A stretch of DNA of 60,248 nucleotides from Candidatus Aenigmatarchaeota archaeon. Lineage in GTDB: Archaea; Aenigmatarchaeota; Aenigmatarchaeia; PWEA01; JAGHBM01. Made by a program: the position numbers and the translations under genes. Below, piece by piece: positions 9,535 to 27,163 of the stretch; the first letter of the stretch is position 1, and each line of letters opens with the position of its first letter. The stretch covers positions 1 to 60,248 of the forward strand of contig JAGGZI010000040.1 of the NCBI GenBank assembly GCA_021162085.1. The letters are read 5' to 3'. The notes below the pieces were generated by a model, which saw only the letters and a program-made list of their open reading frames with translations, was not told the DNA's origin and did no database searches.

Positions 9535-9789
9535 TTGGGGTGTGTCATCGTGAGGATATCAAGAGATGTTGTATTAAAAGAACATGAATTAAAGAATAGT
9601 CTATTTCCATTCAGGGATATGCAGGATCTGGTCAAGATAAGAAAACCCGTTGTTAAGAGAGTCGGCGATGTCGTCAAGGAATGTCATTTCTTTAAAGAGA
9701 CTGGACAGTGTTTTGGTAGCAGGTGTTTTTGGACCCGGCACGGGAGCTGTCCATTCTACGAGAGAATAAAGAAGACTGGAAAGGTTTAA
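9535..9789 (+). CDS. Small protein with CCCH-like Cys/His cluster
   Basis: C50-x8-C59-x4-C64-x4-H69 followed by GSCPFYE. Start codon uncertain (GTG). 4-nt overlap with the trm1 stop on the opposite strand. Confidence 0.35.
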   Translation: MGCVIVRISRDVVLKEHELKNSLFPFRDMQDLVKIRKPVVKRVGDVVKECHFFKETGQCFGSRCFWTRHGSCPFYERIKKTGKV

Positions 9790-10880
9790 ATGAATTTTAT
9801 AAGTTCTTCGAAACTGGCATTTGTCTTTATGGCAGTTGGACAAAAATGCGTTCTGGATGCCTTAAATCCAGATTCTTTTAAGTCTTTAATTATGTTTTCT
9901 ATTTTCTTTATTTGTTTTCCAGCCTTCTTACATATGTAGTGTGTATCATAGTATAATGAAAATGAAACTTCTTCCCTGATTTTATCTATTAAATTTTTTT
10001 CTTTTACAAACATTCTTTTCTCCATTTTCTTTTTAAGGCTATTAAGGAAGGTCTTGTTCTGTATTTCTCCGAGATATATTTCACAAAATTTTGTTTTGCT
10101 GCCACAGATGGGACATTTTTGATTTAAGGAAGCTCCTCTCCAACCACAATTGAAGCAATGACTTATATATCCAAATTCTTTCATTTCTCTGTTGACTCTT
10201 TTAACTCCTCTTTCAATCTTTCCATAGACTCTAAAGTAATGTCTCCTTGAATAGCTCAGATATGGAGTAAGACTAATCTCGTATCTACTGAACATTTTCA
10301 TCATTGACGAAATGAGTATTCTTATCCCAAGTTCGTTGTAGTAGTCTGGCTTGAATGACTCTATACCATACCTTCTCAGGCAGACCTTTGGATACGTCCC
10401 ACACAGAGGGGCTGTATCAGTTGCTGTAATTGACAGAAATCCCTCCTTTGGAAAACTTCTTGCCGCAGAATCTAAAAAATAAATTGGTGAACCAAATGGA
10501 TCTATATCTATGAAATCAAATTTGTTTTTTCTCATTATTATATTGGCATCTTCGTTTGTTATTTTCATCTCTATGTTGTTTATTTTTAAGTTCTTCTTTA
10601 TCAGTGAAGCTGCCTTCGGATTAGCATCATTTGCCCACGTGTTTATTTCAGATTCTTTTATGTAGCGCAGCGCCCTCACGCCGGTTGCTGAAAGGGCATC
10701 TAACGCTTTGATATCATTTCTTTTTTTGTTTAGTATCTCTGGAAGGAGGTCAGCGACGCACGTAGAGATATTTCTATCGAACGTCATTATGGGATTATAG
10801 AAAACTTCTCCCTCTTCTGATTTCTCTACATTCGGAATTTTTAGTTTTACTTTTCCTTCCTTGATTTCTCTAAGTTTCAT
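9786..10880 (-). CDS. trm1: tRNA (guanine26-N2)-dimethyltransferase Trm1
   Basis: FYNPIMTFDRNIS, DALSATGVRALRY, DIDPFGSP and a C-terminal CFNCG...CPICG zinc cluster. Confidence 0.9.
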   Translation of the reverse strand: MKLREIKEGKVKLKIPNVEKSEEGEVFYNPIMTFDRNISTCVADLLPEILNKKRNDIKALDALSATGVRALRYIKESEINTWANDANPKAASLIKKNLKINNIEMKITNEDANIIMRKNKFDFIDIDPFGSPIYFLDSAARSFPKEGFLSITATDTAPLCGTYPKVCLRRYGIESFKPDYYNELGIRILISSMMKMFSRYEISLTPYLSYSRRHYFRVYGKIERGVKRVNREMKEFGYISHCFNCGWRGASLNQKCPICGSKTKFCEIYLGEIQNKTFLNSLKKKMEKRMFVKEKNLIDKIREEVSFSLYYDTHYICKKAGKQIKKIENIIKDLKESGFKASRTHFCPTAIKTNASFEELIKFI

Positions 10881-11576: not shown

Positions 11577-12785
11577 TTATTTCTTCTTCTCATTTGAATC
11601 TTTTGCAGTCTCTTTGACCTTTTTTACCTTTTCTCTTTCAACTGCAATCTTCTTGACGTTGTCTATGAATCTCCTAACGTACTCCTTACTTAAGTTTATG
11701 TCTCTCTCACTGATTTCGTCAAGTTTTTTATCGTTTGCCATCTTCTTCATTTCAAGTATTTTGAAGAACACGTTTTCATAGATGGGATTCATTAATCCGG
11801 AGTCAATTAAGTGTTTTTTAAATGCAGATGGTAATTCTTTTGGATCTTCCGGTAACTTATTTATGGTTTTAAGCGCAGCCACGCTTGCCTTTATCATTAT
11901 CTCGTATGTTTTTTCTATGTCAGAAGTCTTCCTTCTGTTCTCAAGAACCTTTAGAATTCTCTCCATTTCCTTCACGAATTCTTTGGCCCTCTTTATGAAC
12001 TTGTCTACTTCTTCACCCTTTATTTCCTTTATTTCTCTGTGTTCGGTGGCTTTCCTGAATTTTACTATATCTTCAAGAATCTTTATGTATTCCTCTTTTG
12101 TCAGTCCATTCTCCACGAGGTATTTTCTTCCCACCTCAGGTGCATGGTTCGCATCTGGTGGTCCTCTGCCCATGTACATTACCACTGCCTGTAGTGAGTC
12201 TAAGACAGCATAGTAAAGGTCTTCTGCAACTATGTACAGTTTTGCATGTTCGGCTCTTCTCAACCTTTTTGGAACGTTTTCCATCCTGCTCTCTACAGCT
12301 TCCTTCGTGATTGGTATCTCTCCCATTTCAAGCAATCTCTTGTTGGTTAAGAAGAATCCAGTATCGTATACCGCTATTCCATCCTTAAGCAGATTGTATG
12401 CGAGCGGGGAGGTTCTTCTTATCATGCTCATAAATTCCGTTATCGTCCATACTGGCTGTGGAGAGAGTTTTTCATCTGTTTCCTCTGCAACCTTAAACAT
12501 GAAGTCATCTATTTCTGCTCTCAACTTCTTGGTGAAATCTCTTCTCGTATCGTCAACAAGAACAACAACATCAATATCACTTTTGCTTGTGAACTCGTTT
12601 CTCACAACGCTTCCCCAGGCAACAATGGACTTTATGAATGGTCCGTATTTTTCAAGAAGTCTCTTACTGAATTTTTTTATAATTTCAGCCCTTCTTCGCT
12701 TTTCAAAATCTTTTATTTTTTTGGCGGTTTTTCTTTTTATCTTGGTTTTACTTTCGAGTGTTTTCTTTTTGAATTTTACCTCCAT
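11577..12785 (-). CDS. Nucleotidyltransferase (MNT-type) fused to HEPN-like helical domains
   Basis: VAWGSVVRNEFTSKSDIDVVVLVDD (GS-x10-DxD pol-beta-type NTase). Downstream R-x5-H (RLRRAEH) lies in a helical region. K-rich termini. Confidence 0.6.
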   Translation of the reverse strand: MEVKFKKKTLESKTKIKRKTAKKIKDFEKRRRAEIIKKFSKRLLEKYGPFIKSIVAWGSVVRNEFTSKSDIDVVVLVDDTRRDFTKKLRAEIDDFMFKVAEETDEKLSPQPVWTITEFMSMIRRTSPLAYNLLKDGIAVYDTGFFLTNKRLLEMGEIPITKEAVESRMENVPKRLRRAEHAKLYIVAEDLYYAVLDSLQAVVMYMGRGPPDANHAPEVGRKYLVENGLTKEEYIKILEDIVKFRKATEHREIKEIKGEEVDKFIKRAKEFVKEMERILKVLENRRKTSDIEKTYEIMIKASVAALKTINKLPEDPKELPSAFKKHLIDSGLMNPIYENVFFKILEMKKMANDKKLDEISERDINLSKEYVRRFIDNVKKIAVEREKVKKVKETAKDSNEKKK

Positions 12786-23874: not shown

Positions 23875-24119
23875 TGGTGCGGGGGACGAGATCTTCGTAG
23901 GGCGATAAAGCTTTCTTTCGCTGTTTCGAATTCACGGATCCATTCTTTTTCACACATGCCTCAAAGTTTCTTTTCCCTAGAGGCTTTTCTTTGTGAAAGA
24001 AAAGGCTCTCTCGCGAAGCGCCTACGCGCACAAGGCCCTCAACCTTGCCCCATATCCAATTGACTGCACAAACTTAAGCTTCATGCAGGCCAATTTTTTG
24101 ACCACTCGGGCACCCCCGC
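23875..24119 (-). tRNA. tRNA-Leu(GAG), class II, encoded CCA, three predicted introns (D-loop, 53/54, 59/60)
   Basis: Minus strand reads GCGGGGG-UG-CCC-GAGUGGUCAAA[~45 nt]GGG-G-CAAGG-UUGAGGG-CCUUG-U-GCGC-GUAG-GCGC-UUC-GCGAG[79 nt]UUCGAA[33 nt]U-CUCGU-CCCCCGC-A-CCA. Acceptor stem is perfect. The spliced product would be about 88 nt, like known archaeal tRNA-Leu. Confidence 0.75.
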
Positions 24120-25326: not shown

Positions 25327-26514
25327 CTATCTTCTCCAGTTTCTTTTATATTCATATCTGAAAGAATTTCTGTTTTTCCTATTTTCGTAGTCCCTCTTGA
25401 ATTTTAAGATTTTTATGTCTGGAACTTCCATTTTCTCTATGTTGTAAGAGAAAGTTGTTATTATCTTTCTGAATGAACTATGGTCATCCGTGGTTAATAG
25501 GGATATCGCCTTTCCTGACTTTCCTGCCCTTGCAGTTCTCCCTATTCTGTTTGTATACTCATCTGGATTTTTCGGTATGTTGTAGTTGAATATGTGGGTC
25601 ACACTTTCTATGTCAAGTCCTCGAGCAGCTACATCGGTTGCAACAAGGATATTGATTTTTTTGTTGCGGAATTTCTCGATAACCTTTTCCCTTCTTTGTT
25701 GTGATAGTCCACCATGTAGTGCTTCAACATTTATGCCATTCTCCATGAGATTTCTTGATACGGAGTCCACGTATCTTCTGGTATTACAAAAGACTATTGC
25801 AAGGCTAGGAGTTTCCTCTTTTATAAGATGAACTAGCAATGAGAACTTTCTCCTGTAGTCAATATCACAATAGTATTGCTTTAGTAAGCTTTCTTCAACT
25901 TTATTTCTTGTCTTTATCCTTTTGGGATTTTTTGTGAATCTGGTTGCAATTCCTTTCAAATTTTCTGGCATGGTGGCGCTGAAGAGCAGAGTCTGTCTTT
26001 CCTTAGGTAGATTACTTTCGATTCTTTTTATATCGTCTATGAATCCCATGTCTATCATTCTATCCGCTTCATCCAAAACGAATATCTTAACGTTACTTAA
26101 ATTCATGTTTCTTCTTCTTATGTGGTCGAGTAACCTTCCAGGTGTCCCAACAACTATTTCGGCATTGCTCAATCCTCTTATTTGAGGTTCCATTGAGACC
26201 CCTCCATAGACTGTCTGCACATGGATTTTTTTCTTGCTGGAATACTCTCCTAAGTTTTTTGCTATCTGCAATACCAACTCTCTTGTCGGTGCTAAGACCA
26301 GTGCTTGAATCCCTCGCCCCTCAACGACTTTTTCTACCAATGGTATTCCAAAGGCAGCGGTTTTTCCAGAACCAGTCTCGGACTGCCCTATAACATCATA
26401 ACCCTTTTTAATTATTGGTATTGTTTCGTGCTGTATTTTTGTCGGGTTTTCAAATCCTATTTCATTCAACGAATCCAAGATACTCTCTTCAATATTCATA
26501 TCTTTAAATTTCAT
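25327..26514 (-). CDS. DEAD-box ATP-dependent RNA helicase
   Basis: Q-motif region, GSGKTAAF, PTRELV, VLDEADRM, SAT, ARGLD and HRIGRTARAG-type (NRIGRTARAG) motifs. Confidence 0.92.
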   Translation of the reverse strand: MKFKDMNIEESILDSLNEIGFENPTKIQHETIPIIKKGYDVIGQSETGSGKTAAFGIPLVEKVVEGRGIQALVLAPTRELVLQIAKNLGEYSSKKKIHVQTVYGGVSMEPQIRGLSNAEIVVGTPGRLLDHIRRRNMNLSNVKIFVLDEADRMIDMGFIDDIKRIESNLPKERQTLLFSATMPENLKGIATRFTKNPKRIKTRNKVEESLLKQYYCDIDYRRKFSLLVHLIKEETPSLAIVFCNTRRYVDSVSRNLMENGINVEALHGGLSQQRREKVIEKFRNKKINILVATDVAARGLDIESVTHIFNYNIPKNPDEYTNRIGRTARAGKSGKAISLLTTDDHSSFRKIITTFSYNIEKMEVPDIKILKFKRDYENRKNRNSFRYEYKRNWRR

Positions 26515-26664
26515 GTTATCAACTCCTAATAAAAAGTCACAAAAGCAATAGAATTAGTATTATAAACTAACGCTATTTGACACGATTTAATATCGCGGCT
26601 CTGTACTTTTTGTTTTTAAAACTATTAGCATCGTTAAGTATTTAAAGGTTAAAATTGGTTAAAT

Positions 26665-26951
26665 TGGTGCTCCCGCCGGGAGATTTCCAGCACGAAGCAC
26701 ACTACGTGTGCTTCAACCCCTTTCCATCAACATCACCAAAGTTTCTTTGGAAGTACAGAAACTTTCTTTGTGAAAGAAAGGATCTGTTTTGAACCCGGGT
26801 CTCGAGCTCTCTCCAAAGTTTTAGTTTTGCTTAAAGCTTTTTCTAAAAACTTACGAGAGGCTCGCATCCTTAGCCATTGTCCAAACCTTCCTTTTCTTTT
26901 CCTGAAGGATTTCTTTTTGTGAAAAAGAAAGGCTTCCTAGACTACGGGAGC
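26665..26951 (-). tRNA. tRNA-Glu(CUC), encoded CCA, three predicted introns (D-loop ~58 nt, 37/38 45 nt, 59/60 ~106 nt)
   Basis: Minus strand reads GCUCCCG-UA-GUCU-AG[intron]AAUGGCUAA-GGAU-G-CGAGC-CUCUCG[intron]A-GCUCG-AGAC-CCGGG-UUCAAA[intron]U-CCCGG-CGGGAGC-A-CCA. It closely parallels known archaeal tRNA-Glu. The spliced length would be about 78 nt. Confidence 0.7.
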
Positions 26952-26990: not shown

Positions 26991-27163
26991 TGGCGGGCCT
27001 GGAGGGACACTCAAAAGTTTGTCGACTTAGTGTAGTCCAAGTTTGTGCATCCAACTTCACTCGAACCCCCAATCTCTCGGTTTCTTAGATACCTTAGTTT
27101 TGATGAAACTTTTTCTAAAGTTTCTCCGAAGCCGAGCGCGTTATCCAGTTACGCTACAGGCCC
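26991..27163 (-). tRNA. tRNA-Arg(UCG), encoded CCA, two predicted introns (37/38 44 nt, 59/60 ~52 nt)
   Basis: Minus strand reads GGGCCUG-UA-GCGU-AACUGGAUA-ACGC-G-CUCGG-CUUCGG[intron]A-CCGAG-AGAUU-GGGGG-UUCGAG[intron]U-CCCUC-CAGGCCC-G-CCA. The spliced length would be 77 nt. Confidence 0.75.

What the first reader, a model, noticed from the sequence alone, without database searches (positions are those of the whole stretch)
26665..26951. tRNA-Glu(CUC) with three introns including a ~106-nt T-loop intron (gene 287 nt for a 78-nt tRNA)
Seen: the 5' end GCUCCCGUAGUCUAG and the 3' end UCCCGGCGGGAGCACCA form a perfect acceptor stem. Internal exon pieces AAUGGCUAAGGAUGCGAGCCUCUCG, AGCUCGAGACCCGGGUUCAAA and U-CCCGG reconstruct a tRNA almost co-linear with standard archaeal tRNA-Glu (...GACCCGGGUUCAAAUCCCGG...). 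The introns sit in the D-loop (~58 nt), at the canonical 37/38 site (45 nt) and at 59/60 (~106 nt). About 73 percent of the gene is intron. Inference: a T-loop intron this long is unusual even among multi-intron tRNAs and has room for an embedded functional RNA.
Basis: partly seen in the sequence, partly recalled or inferred. Interest (0 to 1): 0.65.

Follow-up and report, generated by a model that had tools for sequence, protein, structure and literature searches.

The report
Three-intron archaeal tRNA-Glu gene
This is a real glutamate tRNA gene from a small-genome (DPANN-like) archaeon, split by three protein-spliced introns; this kind of gene is already known, and its long third intron looks like structural padding rather than a hidden functional RNA.

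Summary
On the minus strand (26951..26665), four exon pieces join into a perfect tRNA-Glu(CUC). ARAGORN and Rfam find no tRNA in the unspliced DNA.

Seven orthologues from metagenomes and MAGs have 87-97% identical exons. They show four compensatory pair changes across the introns. Their introns are far more divergent and vary in length or are absent.

One correction: the D-loop intron is 60 nt, not 58, so the mature tRNA is 76 nt. Intron-less orthologues and the bulge-helix-bulge (BHB) geometry both support this.

The 106-nt T-loop (59/60) intron is long, but inside the published 11-129 nt range. Relatives reach 155 and 200 nt. It has no box C/D pair and no Rfam match. Only a 33-nt 5' stem-hairpin module is conserved; the rest is lineage-specific hairpins.

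Related intron sequences recur in tRNA-Arg, Leu, Trp and Gly, as reported for Thermoproteales. The module also lies just after the CCA end of some tRNA genes in relatives.

One anomaly: a 2-nt "UC" at the window's T-loop 3' junction weakens the central helix in the register that gives a normal T-loop.

Verdict: new member of a known kind, of moderate interest.

The parts
26665..26951 (-). Whole tRNA-Glu(CUC) gene: 287 nt, 4 exons and 3 introns, CCA encoded
   Evidence: Sequence. The spliced product is called tRNA-Glu(CUC) by ARAGORN.
26937..26951 (-). Exon 1 (tRNA positions 1-15): GCUCCCGUAGUCUAG, covering the acceptor 5' strand, the D-stem 5' strand, A14 and G15
   Evidence: The 7:66 pair covaries (G-C to A-U) with exon 4.
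26877..26936 (-). Intron 1, D-loop 15/16, 60 nt (GAAGCC...GGACAA). It has a relaxed BHB of the HBh' type. H is G10-U13 paired with GGAC. The bulges are [A14 G15|G] and [A A|U16]. A 14-bp inner helix is formed by a polypyrimidine and a polypurine strand.
   Evidence: BHB tables. An unbiased scan recovers this site as (15,76). The BHB-constrained fold is -18.3 kcal/mol against -18.4 for the free fold. Covariation: i2:N-6 changes A-U to G-C in L034, and i3:N-7 changes A-U to G-C in L010 and L042. The intron is absent in L038 and L039.
26854..26876 (-). Exon 2 (positions 16-37): UGGCUAAGGAUGCGAGCCUCUCG, including the anticodon CUC
26809..26853 (-). Intron 2, canonical 37/38, 45 nt, with a full hBHBh' motif. 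The anticodon stem is the outer helix. H is CUCU paired with GGAG. The bulges are [C G|U] and [A G|A38].
   Evidence: It is 80-85% identical to the canonical intron of L041 and L042 tRNA-Glu. It is homologous to the tRNA-Arg canonical intron, with 74% mean column identity.
26788..26808 (-). Exon 3 (positions 38-59): AGCUCGAGACCCGGGUUCAAA
   Evidence: The anticodon-stem and T-stem pairs covary across introns 2 and 3.
26682..26787 (-). Intron 3, T-loop 59/60, 106 nt. The T-stem is the outer helix. The 3' bulge is [U C|U60] and the 5' bulge is [A58 A59|A]. The central helix is weak (2 of 4 pairs) in this register. An alternative cut 2 nt upstream gives a 104-nt intron with a 4/4 helix.
   Evidence: Orthologues have 3-4 of 4 H pairs at the same site.
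26755..26787 (-). Conserved 5' module of intron 3: stem1 ACAGA/UCUGU enclosing the hairpin CUUUCUUU-CAC-AAAGAAAG. It probably acts as the inner helix (h') next to the 5' splice bulge.
   Evidence: Structure and compensatory changes across 9 copies. nhmmer hits in other tRNA introns and in trailers.
26736..26750 (-). Hairpin 2 of intron 3: CCAAAG-AAA-CUUUGG. L042 has a counterpart.
   Evidence: Sequence comparison.
26694..26714 (-). Hairpin 3 of intron 3: a perfect 9-bp hairpin, GAAGCACAC-GUA-GUGUGCUUC. It lies in a window-specific insertion relative to L042.
   Evidence: Predicted in all folds. It is absent from the orthologous introns.
26665..26681 (-). Exon 4 (positions 60-76): UCCCGGCGGGAGCACCA, covering the T-stem 3' strand, the acceptor 3' strand, A73 and CCA

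Best explanation
This is a genuine tRNA-Glu(CUC) gene from an uncultured small-genome, DPANN-like archaeon. It is interrupted by three protein-spliced (endonuclease/ligase, BHB-type) introns at positions 15/16 (60 nt), 37/38 (45 nt) and 59/60 (106 nt).

Inferred mechanism, from what is established for archaeal tRNA splicing:
- The gene is transcribed as one precursor, possibly together with the tRNA-Arg that ends 39 nt upstream.
- At each junction a bulge-helix-bulge or relaxed variant forms, and the splicing endonuclease cuts after the second base of each 3-nt bulge.
- A ligase of the RtcB type joins the exons and circularises the introns.
- At 37/38 the anticodon stem is the outer helix.
- At 59/60 the T-stem plays the same role. 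A 5-bp stem with a 7-nt loop cut between loop bases 6 and 7 is geometrically equivalent to 37/38.
- At 15/16 the D-stem 5' strand pairs with the intron's 3' end.

The length of the T-loop intron comes from two sources:
- a conserved 5' stem-hairpin module that supplies the inner helix;
- lineage-specific hairpin insertions, not a conserved embedded RNA gene.

The introns belong to families shared between different tRNA genes and positions, so they spread or were homogenised among tRNA genes, as reported for Thermoproteales.

Shown here: exon reconstruction, covariation, BHB-compatible pairing, presence/absence polymorphism and intron families. Inferred: transcription, cleavage, ligation and the exact cut sites.
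For: - Spliced exons give a perfect cloverleaf.
- Seven orthologues (L010, L034, L037, L038, L039, L041, L042) were found with an exon pattern and by ProRS synteny.
- Exons are 87-97% identical. T-loop and D-loop introns are 38-63% identical, against about 40-44% for shuffled sequence.
- The spliced alignment pairs in 100% of cells. Compensatory changes occur at 7:66, two anticodon-stem pairs and one T-stem pair, all spanning introns. No shuffle reached the covariation score (0 of 500), and slid controls collapse.
- Natural intron-less alleles sit exactly at the predicted junctions: no D-loop intron in L038 and L039, and no T-loop intron in L041.
- BHB or relaxed BHB motifs are present at all three junctions in the family.
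- The D-loop BHB fold is isoenergetic with the free minimum-energy fold.
- The 5' module of the T-loop intron shows compensatory changes in 9 copies.
- Intron families: tRNA-Glu 15/16 matches tRNA-Leu 53/54, and the tRNA-Glu 37/38 intron matches the tRNA-Arg 37/38 intron.
- Two neighbouring tRNA genes in the window are built the same way.
- The sequence is identical in a second assembly.
- The genomic context is archaeal: Nre, Mre11/Rad50/HerA/NurA, exosome, RNase P proteins and Trm1.
- Literature: multi-intron tRNAs with up to three introns, relaxed BHB motifs and intron transposition are established (PMC4033280; PMC4090602; PMC8450103). DPANN endonucleases are linked to increased tRNA gene disruption (PMC5829648).
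Against: - There are no expression or splice-junction data.
- No splicing endonuclease gene lies in the window. 57 of the 61 ORFs of at least 70 aa were scanned against Pfam, and none matched an endonuclease family.
- In the window copy, the register that yields the canonical 7-nt T-loop has only 2 of 4 pairs in the central helix.
- A perfect helix (UUCA paired with UGGA) puts the 3' cut 2 nt upstream. That would leave a 9-nt T-loop.
- Other 59/60 introns in the same window have 4/4 helices, so this copy may be spliced inefficiently or aberrantly.
- T5 runs inside introns 1 and 2 could act as archaeal terminators.
- Whether another tRNA-Glu(CUC) gene exists in the genome is unknown.
Confidence: 0.78

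Rival explanations
1. The 106-nt T-loop intron carries a functional small RNA that is released by splicing, for example a box C/D guide as in the archaeal tRNA-Trp intron, or another structured RNA.
For: - The length is well above the usual 12-25 nt (PMC4090602).
- There is one near-C box, GUGAUGU.
- There are stable hairpins, and the whole gene folds with z = -4.6.
- The 5' module shows compensatory changes.
Against: - There is no CUGA D box anywhere in the intron, and no C/D pair in any orthologous intron.
- Rfam gives no hit at E <= 10, even in a 541-nt search.
- Orthologous introns are 0-200 nt long with near-random identity outside the 5' module.
- The module also occurs in other tRNAs and in tRNA trailers, and it sits exactly where the BHB inner helix is needed.
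Confidence: 0.07
2. The window's copy is defective or decaying. A 2-nt UC duplication at the 3' junction of the T-loop intron shifts the cut, so the product has a 9-nt T-loop or is poorly made. tRNA-Glu(UUC) or another copy would then cover GAG codons.
For: - The canonical register has an H helix of 2/4, against 4/4 for the cut 2 nt upstream.
- The fold with a 4-bp H and a 5-nt bulge is 1.9 kcal/mol more stable than the canonical register.
- Orthologues and the window's own Arg and Leu 59/60 introns have 3-4 of 4 H pairs in the correct register.
Against: - All 21 stem pairs of the exons are intact and all conserved tRNA features are retained.
- The other two junctions are good BHBs.
- Canonical introns of relatives also tolerate 2-3 of 4 H pairs, for example L041. 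This suggests a permissive endonuclease that may use the strong T-stem as its reference.
- The sequence is identical in two assemblies.
Confidence: 0.13
3. The T-loop 'intron' is not spliced in cis. Instead it is a spacer between two separately transcribed halves (a split tRNA in the Nanoarchaeum style), with an internal promoter for the 17-nt 3' piece.
For: - Split tRNAs exist in DPANN (N. equitans; PMC4033280).
- The intron's hairpin GAAGCACAC-GUA-GUGUGCUUC resembles hairpins seen upstream of tRNA genes in relatives.
Against: - The pieces are adjacent, collinear and on the same strand.
- No TATA-like box lies between the hairpin and exon 4.
- Orthologous introns as short as 50 nt leave no room for a promoter.
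- The standard cis BHB geometry is present in orthologues.
Confidence: 0.02

Closest known systems
Multi-intron tRNA genes of Thermoproteales (e.g. Pyrobaculum, Thermofilum, Caldivirga), with up to three BHB introns per gene and intron transposition between tRNAs (Sugahara 2008 and Fujishima 2010, as summarised in PMC4033280, PMC4090602 and PMC8450103)
   Same: - Three introns in one gene, the known maximum.
- Non-canonical positions in the D- and T-arms plus the canonical 37/38.
- Relaxed BHB (HBh' and hBH) motifs.
- Near-identical intron families in different tRNAs and at different positions.
- Presence/absence polymorphism between relatives.
   Different: - The host is not a crenarchaeon. 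It is a small-genome lineage whose nearest named ProRS relatives, at about 60% identity, are Aenigmatarchaeota, Woesearchaeota and Nanoarchaeota. A related genome is a single 833-kb contig.
- Non-canonical introns here are much longer (50-200 nt, against a usual 12-25 nt).
- Position 59/60 is occupied in all three tRNA genes of the window and all four in L039, and in most of those seen in other relatives.
- The 5' intron module also occurs right after the CCA end of tRNA genes in relatives.
Disrupted tRNA genes of DPANN archaea: ARMAN-1/2 multi-intron tRNAs cut by the epsilon2 endonuclease, and Nanoarchaeum equitans split and intron-containing tRNAs (PMC3239211, PMC5829648)
   Same: - A small-genome archaeon.
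- Non-canonical introns with relaxed BHB motifs.
- tRNA genes invisible to standard finders. PMC5829648 explicitly predicts undetected disrupted tRNAs in DPANN.
   Different: - This is a different lineage.
- The endonuclease type was not determined here.
- The introns are considerably longer and form recognisable sequence families.
Archaeal tRNA-Trp intron carrying a box C/D guide RNA (Haloferax and others; PMC4090602)
   Same: A long tRNA intron (about 65-105 nt) in an archaeal tRNA.
   Different: - That intron sits at 37/38 and has C, D', C' and D boxes and guides complementary to the tRNA.
- The intron here sits at 59/60, has no D box, and is not conserved among orthologues.
[quoted passage not shown]
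   Same: Three introns distributed over the D-arm, anticodon arm and T-arm of one tRNA gene.
   Different: The host is a eukaryote with short introns and a different endonuclease.

Membership tests
Archaeal BHB-type (endonuclease-spliced) intron-containing tRNA gene | Exons join into a tRNA with a canonical cloverleaf and conserved tertiary bases | tested here: met
   ARAGORN calls the 76-nt and 78-nt joined products tRNA-Glu(CUC). All 21 stem pairs form in all 8 genes.
Archaeal BHB-type (endonuclease-spliced) intron-containing tRNA gene | A bulge-helix-bulge or accepted relaxed form (HBh', hBH) at every exon-intron junction pair, with cuts after the second base of each 3-nt bulge | tested here: inconclusive
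   Met for 37/38 (full hBHBh') and for 15/16 (HBh' with a 4-bp H and a 14-bp h'). For 59/60 in the window, the outer helix and both bulges are present, but H has only 2 of 4 pairs in the register that gives a normal T-loop, and 4/4 in a register 2 nt off. Orthologues have 3-4 of 4.
Archaeal BHB-type (endonuclease-spliced) intron-containing tRNA gene | Exons are under purifying selection and covary across the introns, while the introns evolve freely | tested here: met
   Exons are 87-97% identical, against 38-63% for the D- and T-loop introns. Four compensatory pairs span the introns. Intron presence/absence polymorphism sits at the exact junctions.
Archaeal BHB-type (endonuclease-spliced) intron-containing tRNA gene | The host encodes a splicing endonuclease (EndA) with broad specificity and an RtcB-type ligase | not testable with these tools
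   Neither gene is in the 60-kb window. 57 of the 61 ORFs were scanned against Pfam. The rest of the genome is not available.
Archaeal BHB-type (endonuclease-spliced) intron-containing tRNA gene | Spliced mature tRNA and excised or circular introns are observed | not testable with these tools
   No transcriptome data are available for this organism.
Box C/D sRNA-bearing tRNA intron (tRNA-Trp type) | A C box (RUGAUGA) and a D box (CUGA), usually with C'/D', able to form a k-turn | tested here: not met
   There is one near-C box and no CUGA in the 106-nt intron. No orthologous T-loop intron pairs a C-like box with a D box; the only CUGA among them is in L038. Rfam finds no C/D family match in the gene.
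Box C/D sRNA-bearing tRNA intron (tRNA-Trp type) | The intron sequence is conserved among orthologues | tested here: not met
   Intron length is 0-200 nt. Identity to the window's intron is 41-60%, against about 44% for shuffled sequence.
Self-splicing group I/II intron in a tRNA gene | A ribozyme core recognisable by covariance models; group I introns in tRNA genes typically exceed 200 nt | tested here: not met
   No Rfam intron family matches at E <= 10. The introns are 45-106 nt and made of simple hairpins.
Split or permuted tRNA gene | The tRNA pieces are encoded at separate loci or in permuted order, each with its own promoter | tested here: not met
   The four pieces are collinear, on the same strand and contiguous within 287 nt.
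tRNA pseudogene | Broken stems, lost conserved bases, and no conservation in relatives | tested here: not met
   All stems are intact and the gene is conserved with covariation. The only blemish is the 2-nt anomaly at the 59/60 3' junction.

The most novel reading that the evidence does not exclude
The 59/60 introns of this lineage are copies of a structured element, not independent junk.
- The element is a 5-bp stem enclosing a polypyrimidine/polypurine hairpin, often followed by a second hairpin.
- In related genomes the same element sits immediately after the CCA end of tRNA genes, where it carries T5-6 runs like a terminator.
- Under this reading, T-loop introns arise either by capture of tRNA 3'-flank sequence or by a tRNA-targeting mobile element that lands after A59 or after A76.
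- This would give a concrete, testable route for how archaeal tRNA introns are gained.
- It could also explain tRNAs that appear to be missing from DPANN genomes.
Probability: 0.25. Interest if true: 0.65.

Novelty: new member of a known kind. Interest (0 to 1): 0.4.

Why it matters
- It adds a clear case of maximal (three-intron) tRNA gene disruption outside the Thermoproteales, in a poorly sampled small-genome archaeal lineage.
- All three tRNA genes in this window, and most seen in related contigs, carry a T-loop intron. These introns reach 155-200 nt, beyond the 11-129 nt range in the reviews read here.
- ARAGORN finds none of these genes, and Rfam's covariance models give no tRNA match. 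This supports the suspicion in the literature that tRNAs "missing" from DPANN genomes are often heavily disrupted genes rather than real losses (PMC5829648; bioRxiv 10.64898/2026.05.13.725050).
- The shared intron families, and the same module in tRNA 3' flanks, give material for testing how archaeal tRNA introns spread.

Tried and rejected
- **Finders on the genomic sequence.** ARAGORN, with and without intron mode, found 0 genes in the window. Rfam at gathering threshold and at E <= 10 found no tRNA or other credible family. These tools cannot see the gene, so that is not evidence against it.
- **Synteny through the adjacent PurF-like gene.** The genome-contig scan gave only distant relatives. 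L002 alone keeps a tRNA next to it, and that is tRNA-Arg. The closest PurF homologues (P0003, P0004) have a different neighbourhood.
Rejected in favour of 60 nt (see the observation check).
- **Alternative D-loop cut registers** (+1/-1 and +2/-2). These also show 4/4 H helices because of sequence slippage. They give 11- or 13-nt D-loops that disagree with the intron-less orthologues.
- **Box C/D search.** Negative.
- **Nested intron inside intron 3.** The unbiased BHB scan gives many spurious 4-bp matches because the polypyrimidine/polypurine tracts are low-complexity. No convincing nested motif emerged.
- **Accession search in the literature** (CP070662, GCA_020355185, SAMN18353078, Ga0190359). 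No hits.
- **MAFFT alignment of the intron modules.** Not structure-aware, so a hand-made structural table was used instead.

Full report
**1. What is in the sequence**

The feature is on the minus strand, window 26951..26665, 287 nt. Its ends, GCUCCCG... and ...CGGGAGCACCA, form a perfect acceptor stem with an encoded CCA.

ARAGORN calls this tRNA-Glu(CUC) with a flawless cloverleaf.

On the unspliced DNA the standard tools find nothing. ARAGORN found no gene, with or without intron mode. Rfam found no tRNA at gathering score or at E <= 10, even when only 541 nt were searched. These tools are blind to this gene, so their silence is not evidence against it.

**2. Context and host**

The window is archaeal. 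It encodes the following:
- Nre, HerA/NurA/Mre11/Rad50, and the exosome subunits Rrp4, Rrp41 and Rrp42;
- proteasome alpha, SBDS, TFB and Alba;
- RNase P proteins p30 and Pop5, Trm1, and a nucleotidyltransferase-domain protein (possibly a CCA-adding enzyme).

G+C content is about 38%.

The closest ProRS relatives are unnamed metagenome proteins at 83% identity or lower. One, at 71%, lies on a single 832,879-bp contig (CP070662.1, labelled "MAG: archaeon"). The nearest named hits, at about 60%, are Aenigmatarchaeota, Woesearchaeota and Nanoarchaeota. I therefore call the host an unclassified, DPANN-like, small-genome archaeon.

A second assembly of the same population (ENA scaffold, L001) contains the 287-nt gene with 100% identity.

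**3. Orthologues**

A metagenome scan with a 22-nt exon-2 pattern returned 28 loci. Four of them (L010, L018, L034, L037) have the same broken architecture, with a tRNA-Arg just upstream. ProRS-anchored look-ups added the complete L018 gene (as L038), plus L039 (CP070662.1), L041 and L042.

| Gene | D-loop intron (nt) | 37/38 intron (nt) | 59/60 intron (nt) |
|---|---|---|---|
| window | 60 | 45 | 106 |
| L010 | 85 | 45 | 77 |
| L034 | 30 | 25 | 50 |
| L037 | 25 | 24 | 90 |
| L038 | 0 | 38 | 200 |
| L039 | 0 | 42 | 78 |
| L041 | 45 (at 21/22, not 15/16) | 47 | 0 |
| L042 | 77 | 44 | 90 |

- Exons are 87-97% identical to the window's.
- D-loop and T-loop introns are 38-63% identical, against about 40-44% for shuffled sequence.
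- On the spliced alignment every one of the 21 stem pairs forms in every sequence.
- Compensatory double changes occur at 7:66, at two anticodon-stem pairs and at one T-stem pair. In each case the two partners lie in different exons.
- No shuffle (0 of 500) reached the observed covariation score, and sliding the partners by 1-3 columns destroys the pairing.

This is the signature of a functional tRNA whose pieces are joined at the RNA level. It argues against a pseudogene.

**4. Correction of the D-loop intron**

The intron-less orthologues read GUCU-AGUGGCUAA-GGAU (L038) and GUCU-AGCGGUUAA-GGAU (L039). This 9-nt D-loop is of the kind I recall for bacterial and eukaryotic tRNA-Glu (my own knowledge, not tested here).

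For the window this means the intron is GAAGCC...GGACAA, 60 nt, at 26936..26877, and the mature tRNA is 76 nt.

Only this boundary fits the bulge-helix-bulge rule:
- H is G10-U13 paired with the four bases before the 3' bulge.
- The bulges are [A14 G15|G] and [A A|U16].
- A 14-bp inner helix follows.
- There is no outer helix, so this is the relaxed HBh' form.

Supporting evidence:
- Pairs specific to this conformer covary. i2:N-6 changes from A-U to G-C in L034, and i3:N-7 changes from A-U to G-C in L010 and L042.
- The BHB-constrained fold is isoenergetic with the free fold (-18.3 against -18.4 kcal/mol).
- An unbiased scan of the gene recovers the site.

**5. The other two junctions**

The 37/38 intron has a textbook hBHBh' motif.

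The 59/60 intron uses the T-stem as the outer helix and U54-A57 as one strand of the central helix. A 5-bp stem with a 7-nt loop cut between loop bases 6 and 7 is the geometric twin of 37/38.

Central-helix pairing at 59/60:

| Gene | H pairs |
|---|---|
| L010, L037, L038, L042 | 4 of 4 |
| L034, L039 | 3 of 4 |
| window | 2 of 4 |

The window reads ...CUGGAAAUC|UCCCGG where L042 reads ...UGGAAA|UCCCCG. It looks as if UC had been duplicated.

The perfect helix (UUCA paired with UGGA) would put the 3' cut two bases upstream. That gives a 104-nt intron and a tRNA with a 9-nt T-loop, which ARAGORN still accepts.

Constrained folds:

| Conformer | Energy (kcal/mol) |
|---|---|
| T-stem + 5-nt bulge + 4-bp helix | -40.4 |
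| canonical register | -38.5 |
| free fold | -43.6 |

The window's own tRNA-Arg and tRNA-Leu 59/60 introns have 4/4 helices. So the exact 3' cut, and the efficiency of splicing of this particular copy, remain open. Canonical introns of some relatives also have only 2-3 of 4 helix pairs, which hints at a permissive enzyme.

**6. Is there an RNA inside the long intron?**

I found no support for this.
- The intron has one near-C box and no CUGA. No orthologous T-loop intron has a C/D pair.
- Rfam is silent.
- Only the first 33 nt are conserved: stem1 ACAGA/UCUGU enclosing CUUUCUUU-CAC-AAAGAAAG (26787..26755).
- In nine copies of this module, stem1 shows A-U/G-C exchanges at all five positions and the hairpin is always fully paired.
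- The module begins at or one base after the 5' splice site, so it is best read as the inner helix (h') of the splice motif.
- The remainder differs from genome to genome. In the window it includes CCAAAG-AAA-CUUUGG and the perfect hairpin GAAGCACAC-GUA-GUGUGCUUC, which lies in an insertion relative to L042.

A length of 106 nt is large next to the usual 12-25 nt, but inside the published 11-129 nt range (PMC4090602). Relatives exceed that range: 200 nt in L038 tRNA-Glu and 155 nt in L002 tRNA-Arg.

**7. Intron families**

- The window's tRNA-Glu 15/16 intron is homologous to the 53/54 intron of the window's tRNA-Leu, and to the 15/16 introns of L010 and L042 (70% mean column identity).
- The canonical introns of tRNA-Glu and tRNA-Arg are homologous within and between genomes (74%).
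- The window's canonical intron is 80-85% identical to those of the more distant L041 and L042, but only 44-53% identical to those of the close L037 and L038.
- The 59/60 module occurs in tRNA-Glu, Arg, Trp and Gly.

This repeats, in a different lineage, the pattern interpreted as intron transposition in Thermoproteales (PMC4033280; PMC4090602).

Unexpectedly, the same module also lies directly after the CCA end of two kinds of tRNA gene:
- tRNA-Arg in L039, L041, L042 and L043;
- tRNA-Trp in L039.

These trailer copies often carry T5-6 runs. I cannot explain this. Capture of 3'-flank or terminator sequence, a mobile element, or duplication of the 3' exon are all possible.

**8. Comparison with what is known, and verdict**

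- Multi-intron tRNA genes with up to three introns, relaxed BHB motifs and broad-specificity endonucleases are well described in Thermoproteales.
- They are also known in N. equitans, M. kandleri, Korarchaeum and ARMAN (PMC4033280, PMC8450103, PMC3239211).
- Increased tRNA disruption in DPANN, and probably undetected genes, have been noted (PMC5829648).
- A 2026 preprint still reports unexplained missing tRNAs in complete Nanobdellota genomes.

The finding is therefore a new member of a known kind. Its speculation about an embedded RNA is not supported.

The features worth following up are:
- the frequency and length of 59/60 introns in this lineage;
- the shared intron families;
- the module's second home in tRNA trailers;
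- the odd 3' junction of this particular copy.

Noticed in passing
window 26991-27163 (-): A tRNA-Arg(UCG) gene ends 39 nt upstream of tRNA-Glu on the same strand. It has a 44-nt intron at 37/38 and a 52-nt intron at 59/60 with a good hBHBh' motif (4/4 H). ARAGORN and Rfam miss it too. The Arg-Glu tandem is conserved in L010, L034, L037, L038, L039, L041 and L042.
   Followed up: partly
window 23875-24119 (-): A tRNA-Leu(GAG) gene with three introns: 44 nt in the D-loop, 79 nt at 53/54 and 33 nt at 59/60. This leaves a 6-nt micro-exon, UUCGAA, between the last two. The joined exons give an 89-nt tRNA-Leu in ARAGORN. Its 53/54 intron is homologous to the tRNA-Glu 15/16 intron.
   Followed up: partly
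window ~26515-26610 (-), between tRNA-Glu and the DEAD-box helicase start (ATG at 26514): A non-coding block of about 100 nt upstream of the DEAD-box helicase is almost identical in L037 and L038. It contains a hairpin with compensatory changes: CGCGAU..AUCGUG, CAUGAU..AUCGUG and CACGGU..AUCGUG. It is probably a conserved 5' UTR or regulatory element. In L038 a cold-shock-domain gene follows the helicase.
   Followed up: partly
L039 13091-13165 and 1996-2065; L041 8060-8160; L042 8000-8075; L043 8030-8045: The stem-hairpin module of the 59/60 introns also lies immediately after the encoded CCA of tRNA-Arg (and of tRNA-Trp in L039). These copies often carry T5-6 runs like a terminator. The reason for this second location is unknown.
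   Followed up: partly
L039 1733-1995 and 3318-3535 (CP070662.1): Two more disrupted tRNA genes in the related complete genome. One is a tRNA-Trp(CCA) with a canonical intron of about 100 nt plus a 59/60 intron. The other is a tRNA-Gly(UCC) with a long intron after the anticodon loop plus a 59/60 intron. All four tRNA genes seen in this 21-kb stretch carry a 59/60 intron, and three of them (Glu, Gly, Trp) carry the module in it.
   Followed up: partly
L042 8478-9722: A phage-integrase-family gene lies directly downstream of the three-intron tRNA-Glu in this relative. This bears on the idea that tRNA disruption and element integration are linked.
   Followed up: no
L002 1-320 (-): A tRNA-Arg(UCG) next to the PurF-like gene of a more distant relative has a 52-nt canonical intron and a 155-nt intron at 59/60. 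That is longer than the 129-nt maximum quoted in PMC4090602.
   Followed up: partly
L011, L016, L031, L022: tRNA-Glu(CUC) genes of another, unidentified lineage share exon 2. They carry short non-canonical insertions in the variable/T-stem region, and three of them (L011, L016, L031) also carry one in the T-loop.
   Followed up: no
window 11577-12785 (-) and 9786-10880 (-): Two tRNA-related genes lie in the window: a nucleotidyltransferase-domain protein of 402 aa (possibly a CCA-adding enzyme) and a Trm1 m2,2G methyltransferase. All three tRNA genes in the window already encode CCA.
   Followed up: no
window 26877-26936 and 26809-26853: Introns 1 and 2 contain T5 runs on the sense strand (CCTTTCTTTTTCAC and AAGTTTTTAG). 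These could act as archaeal termination signals inside the gene. Orthologues have similar runs.
   Followed up: no
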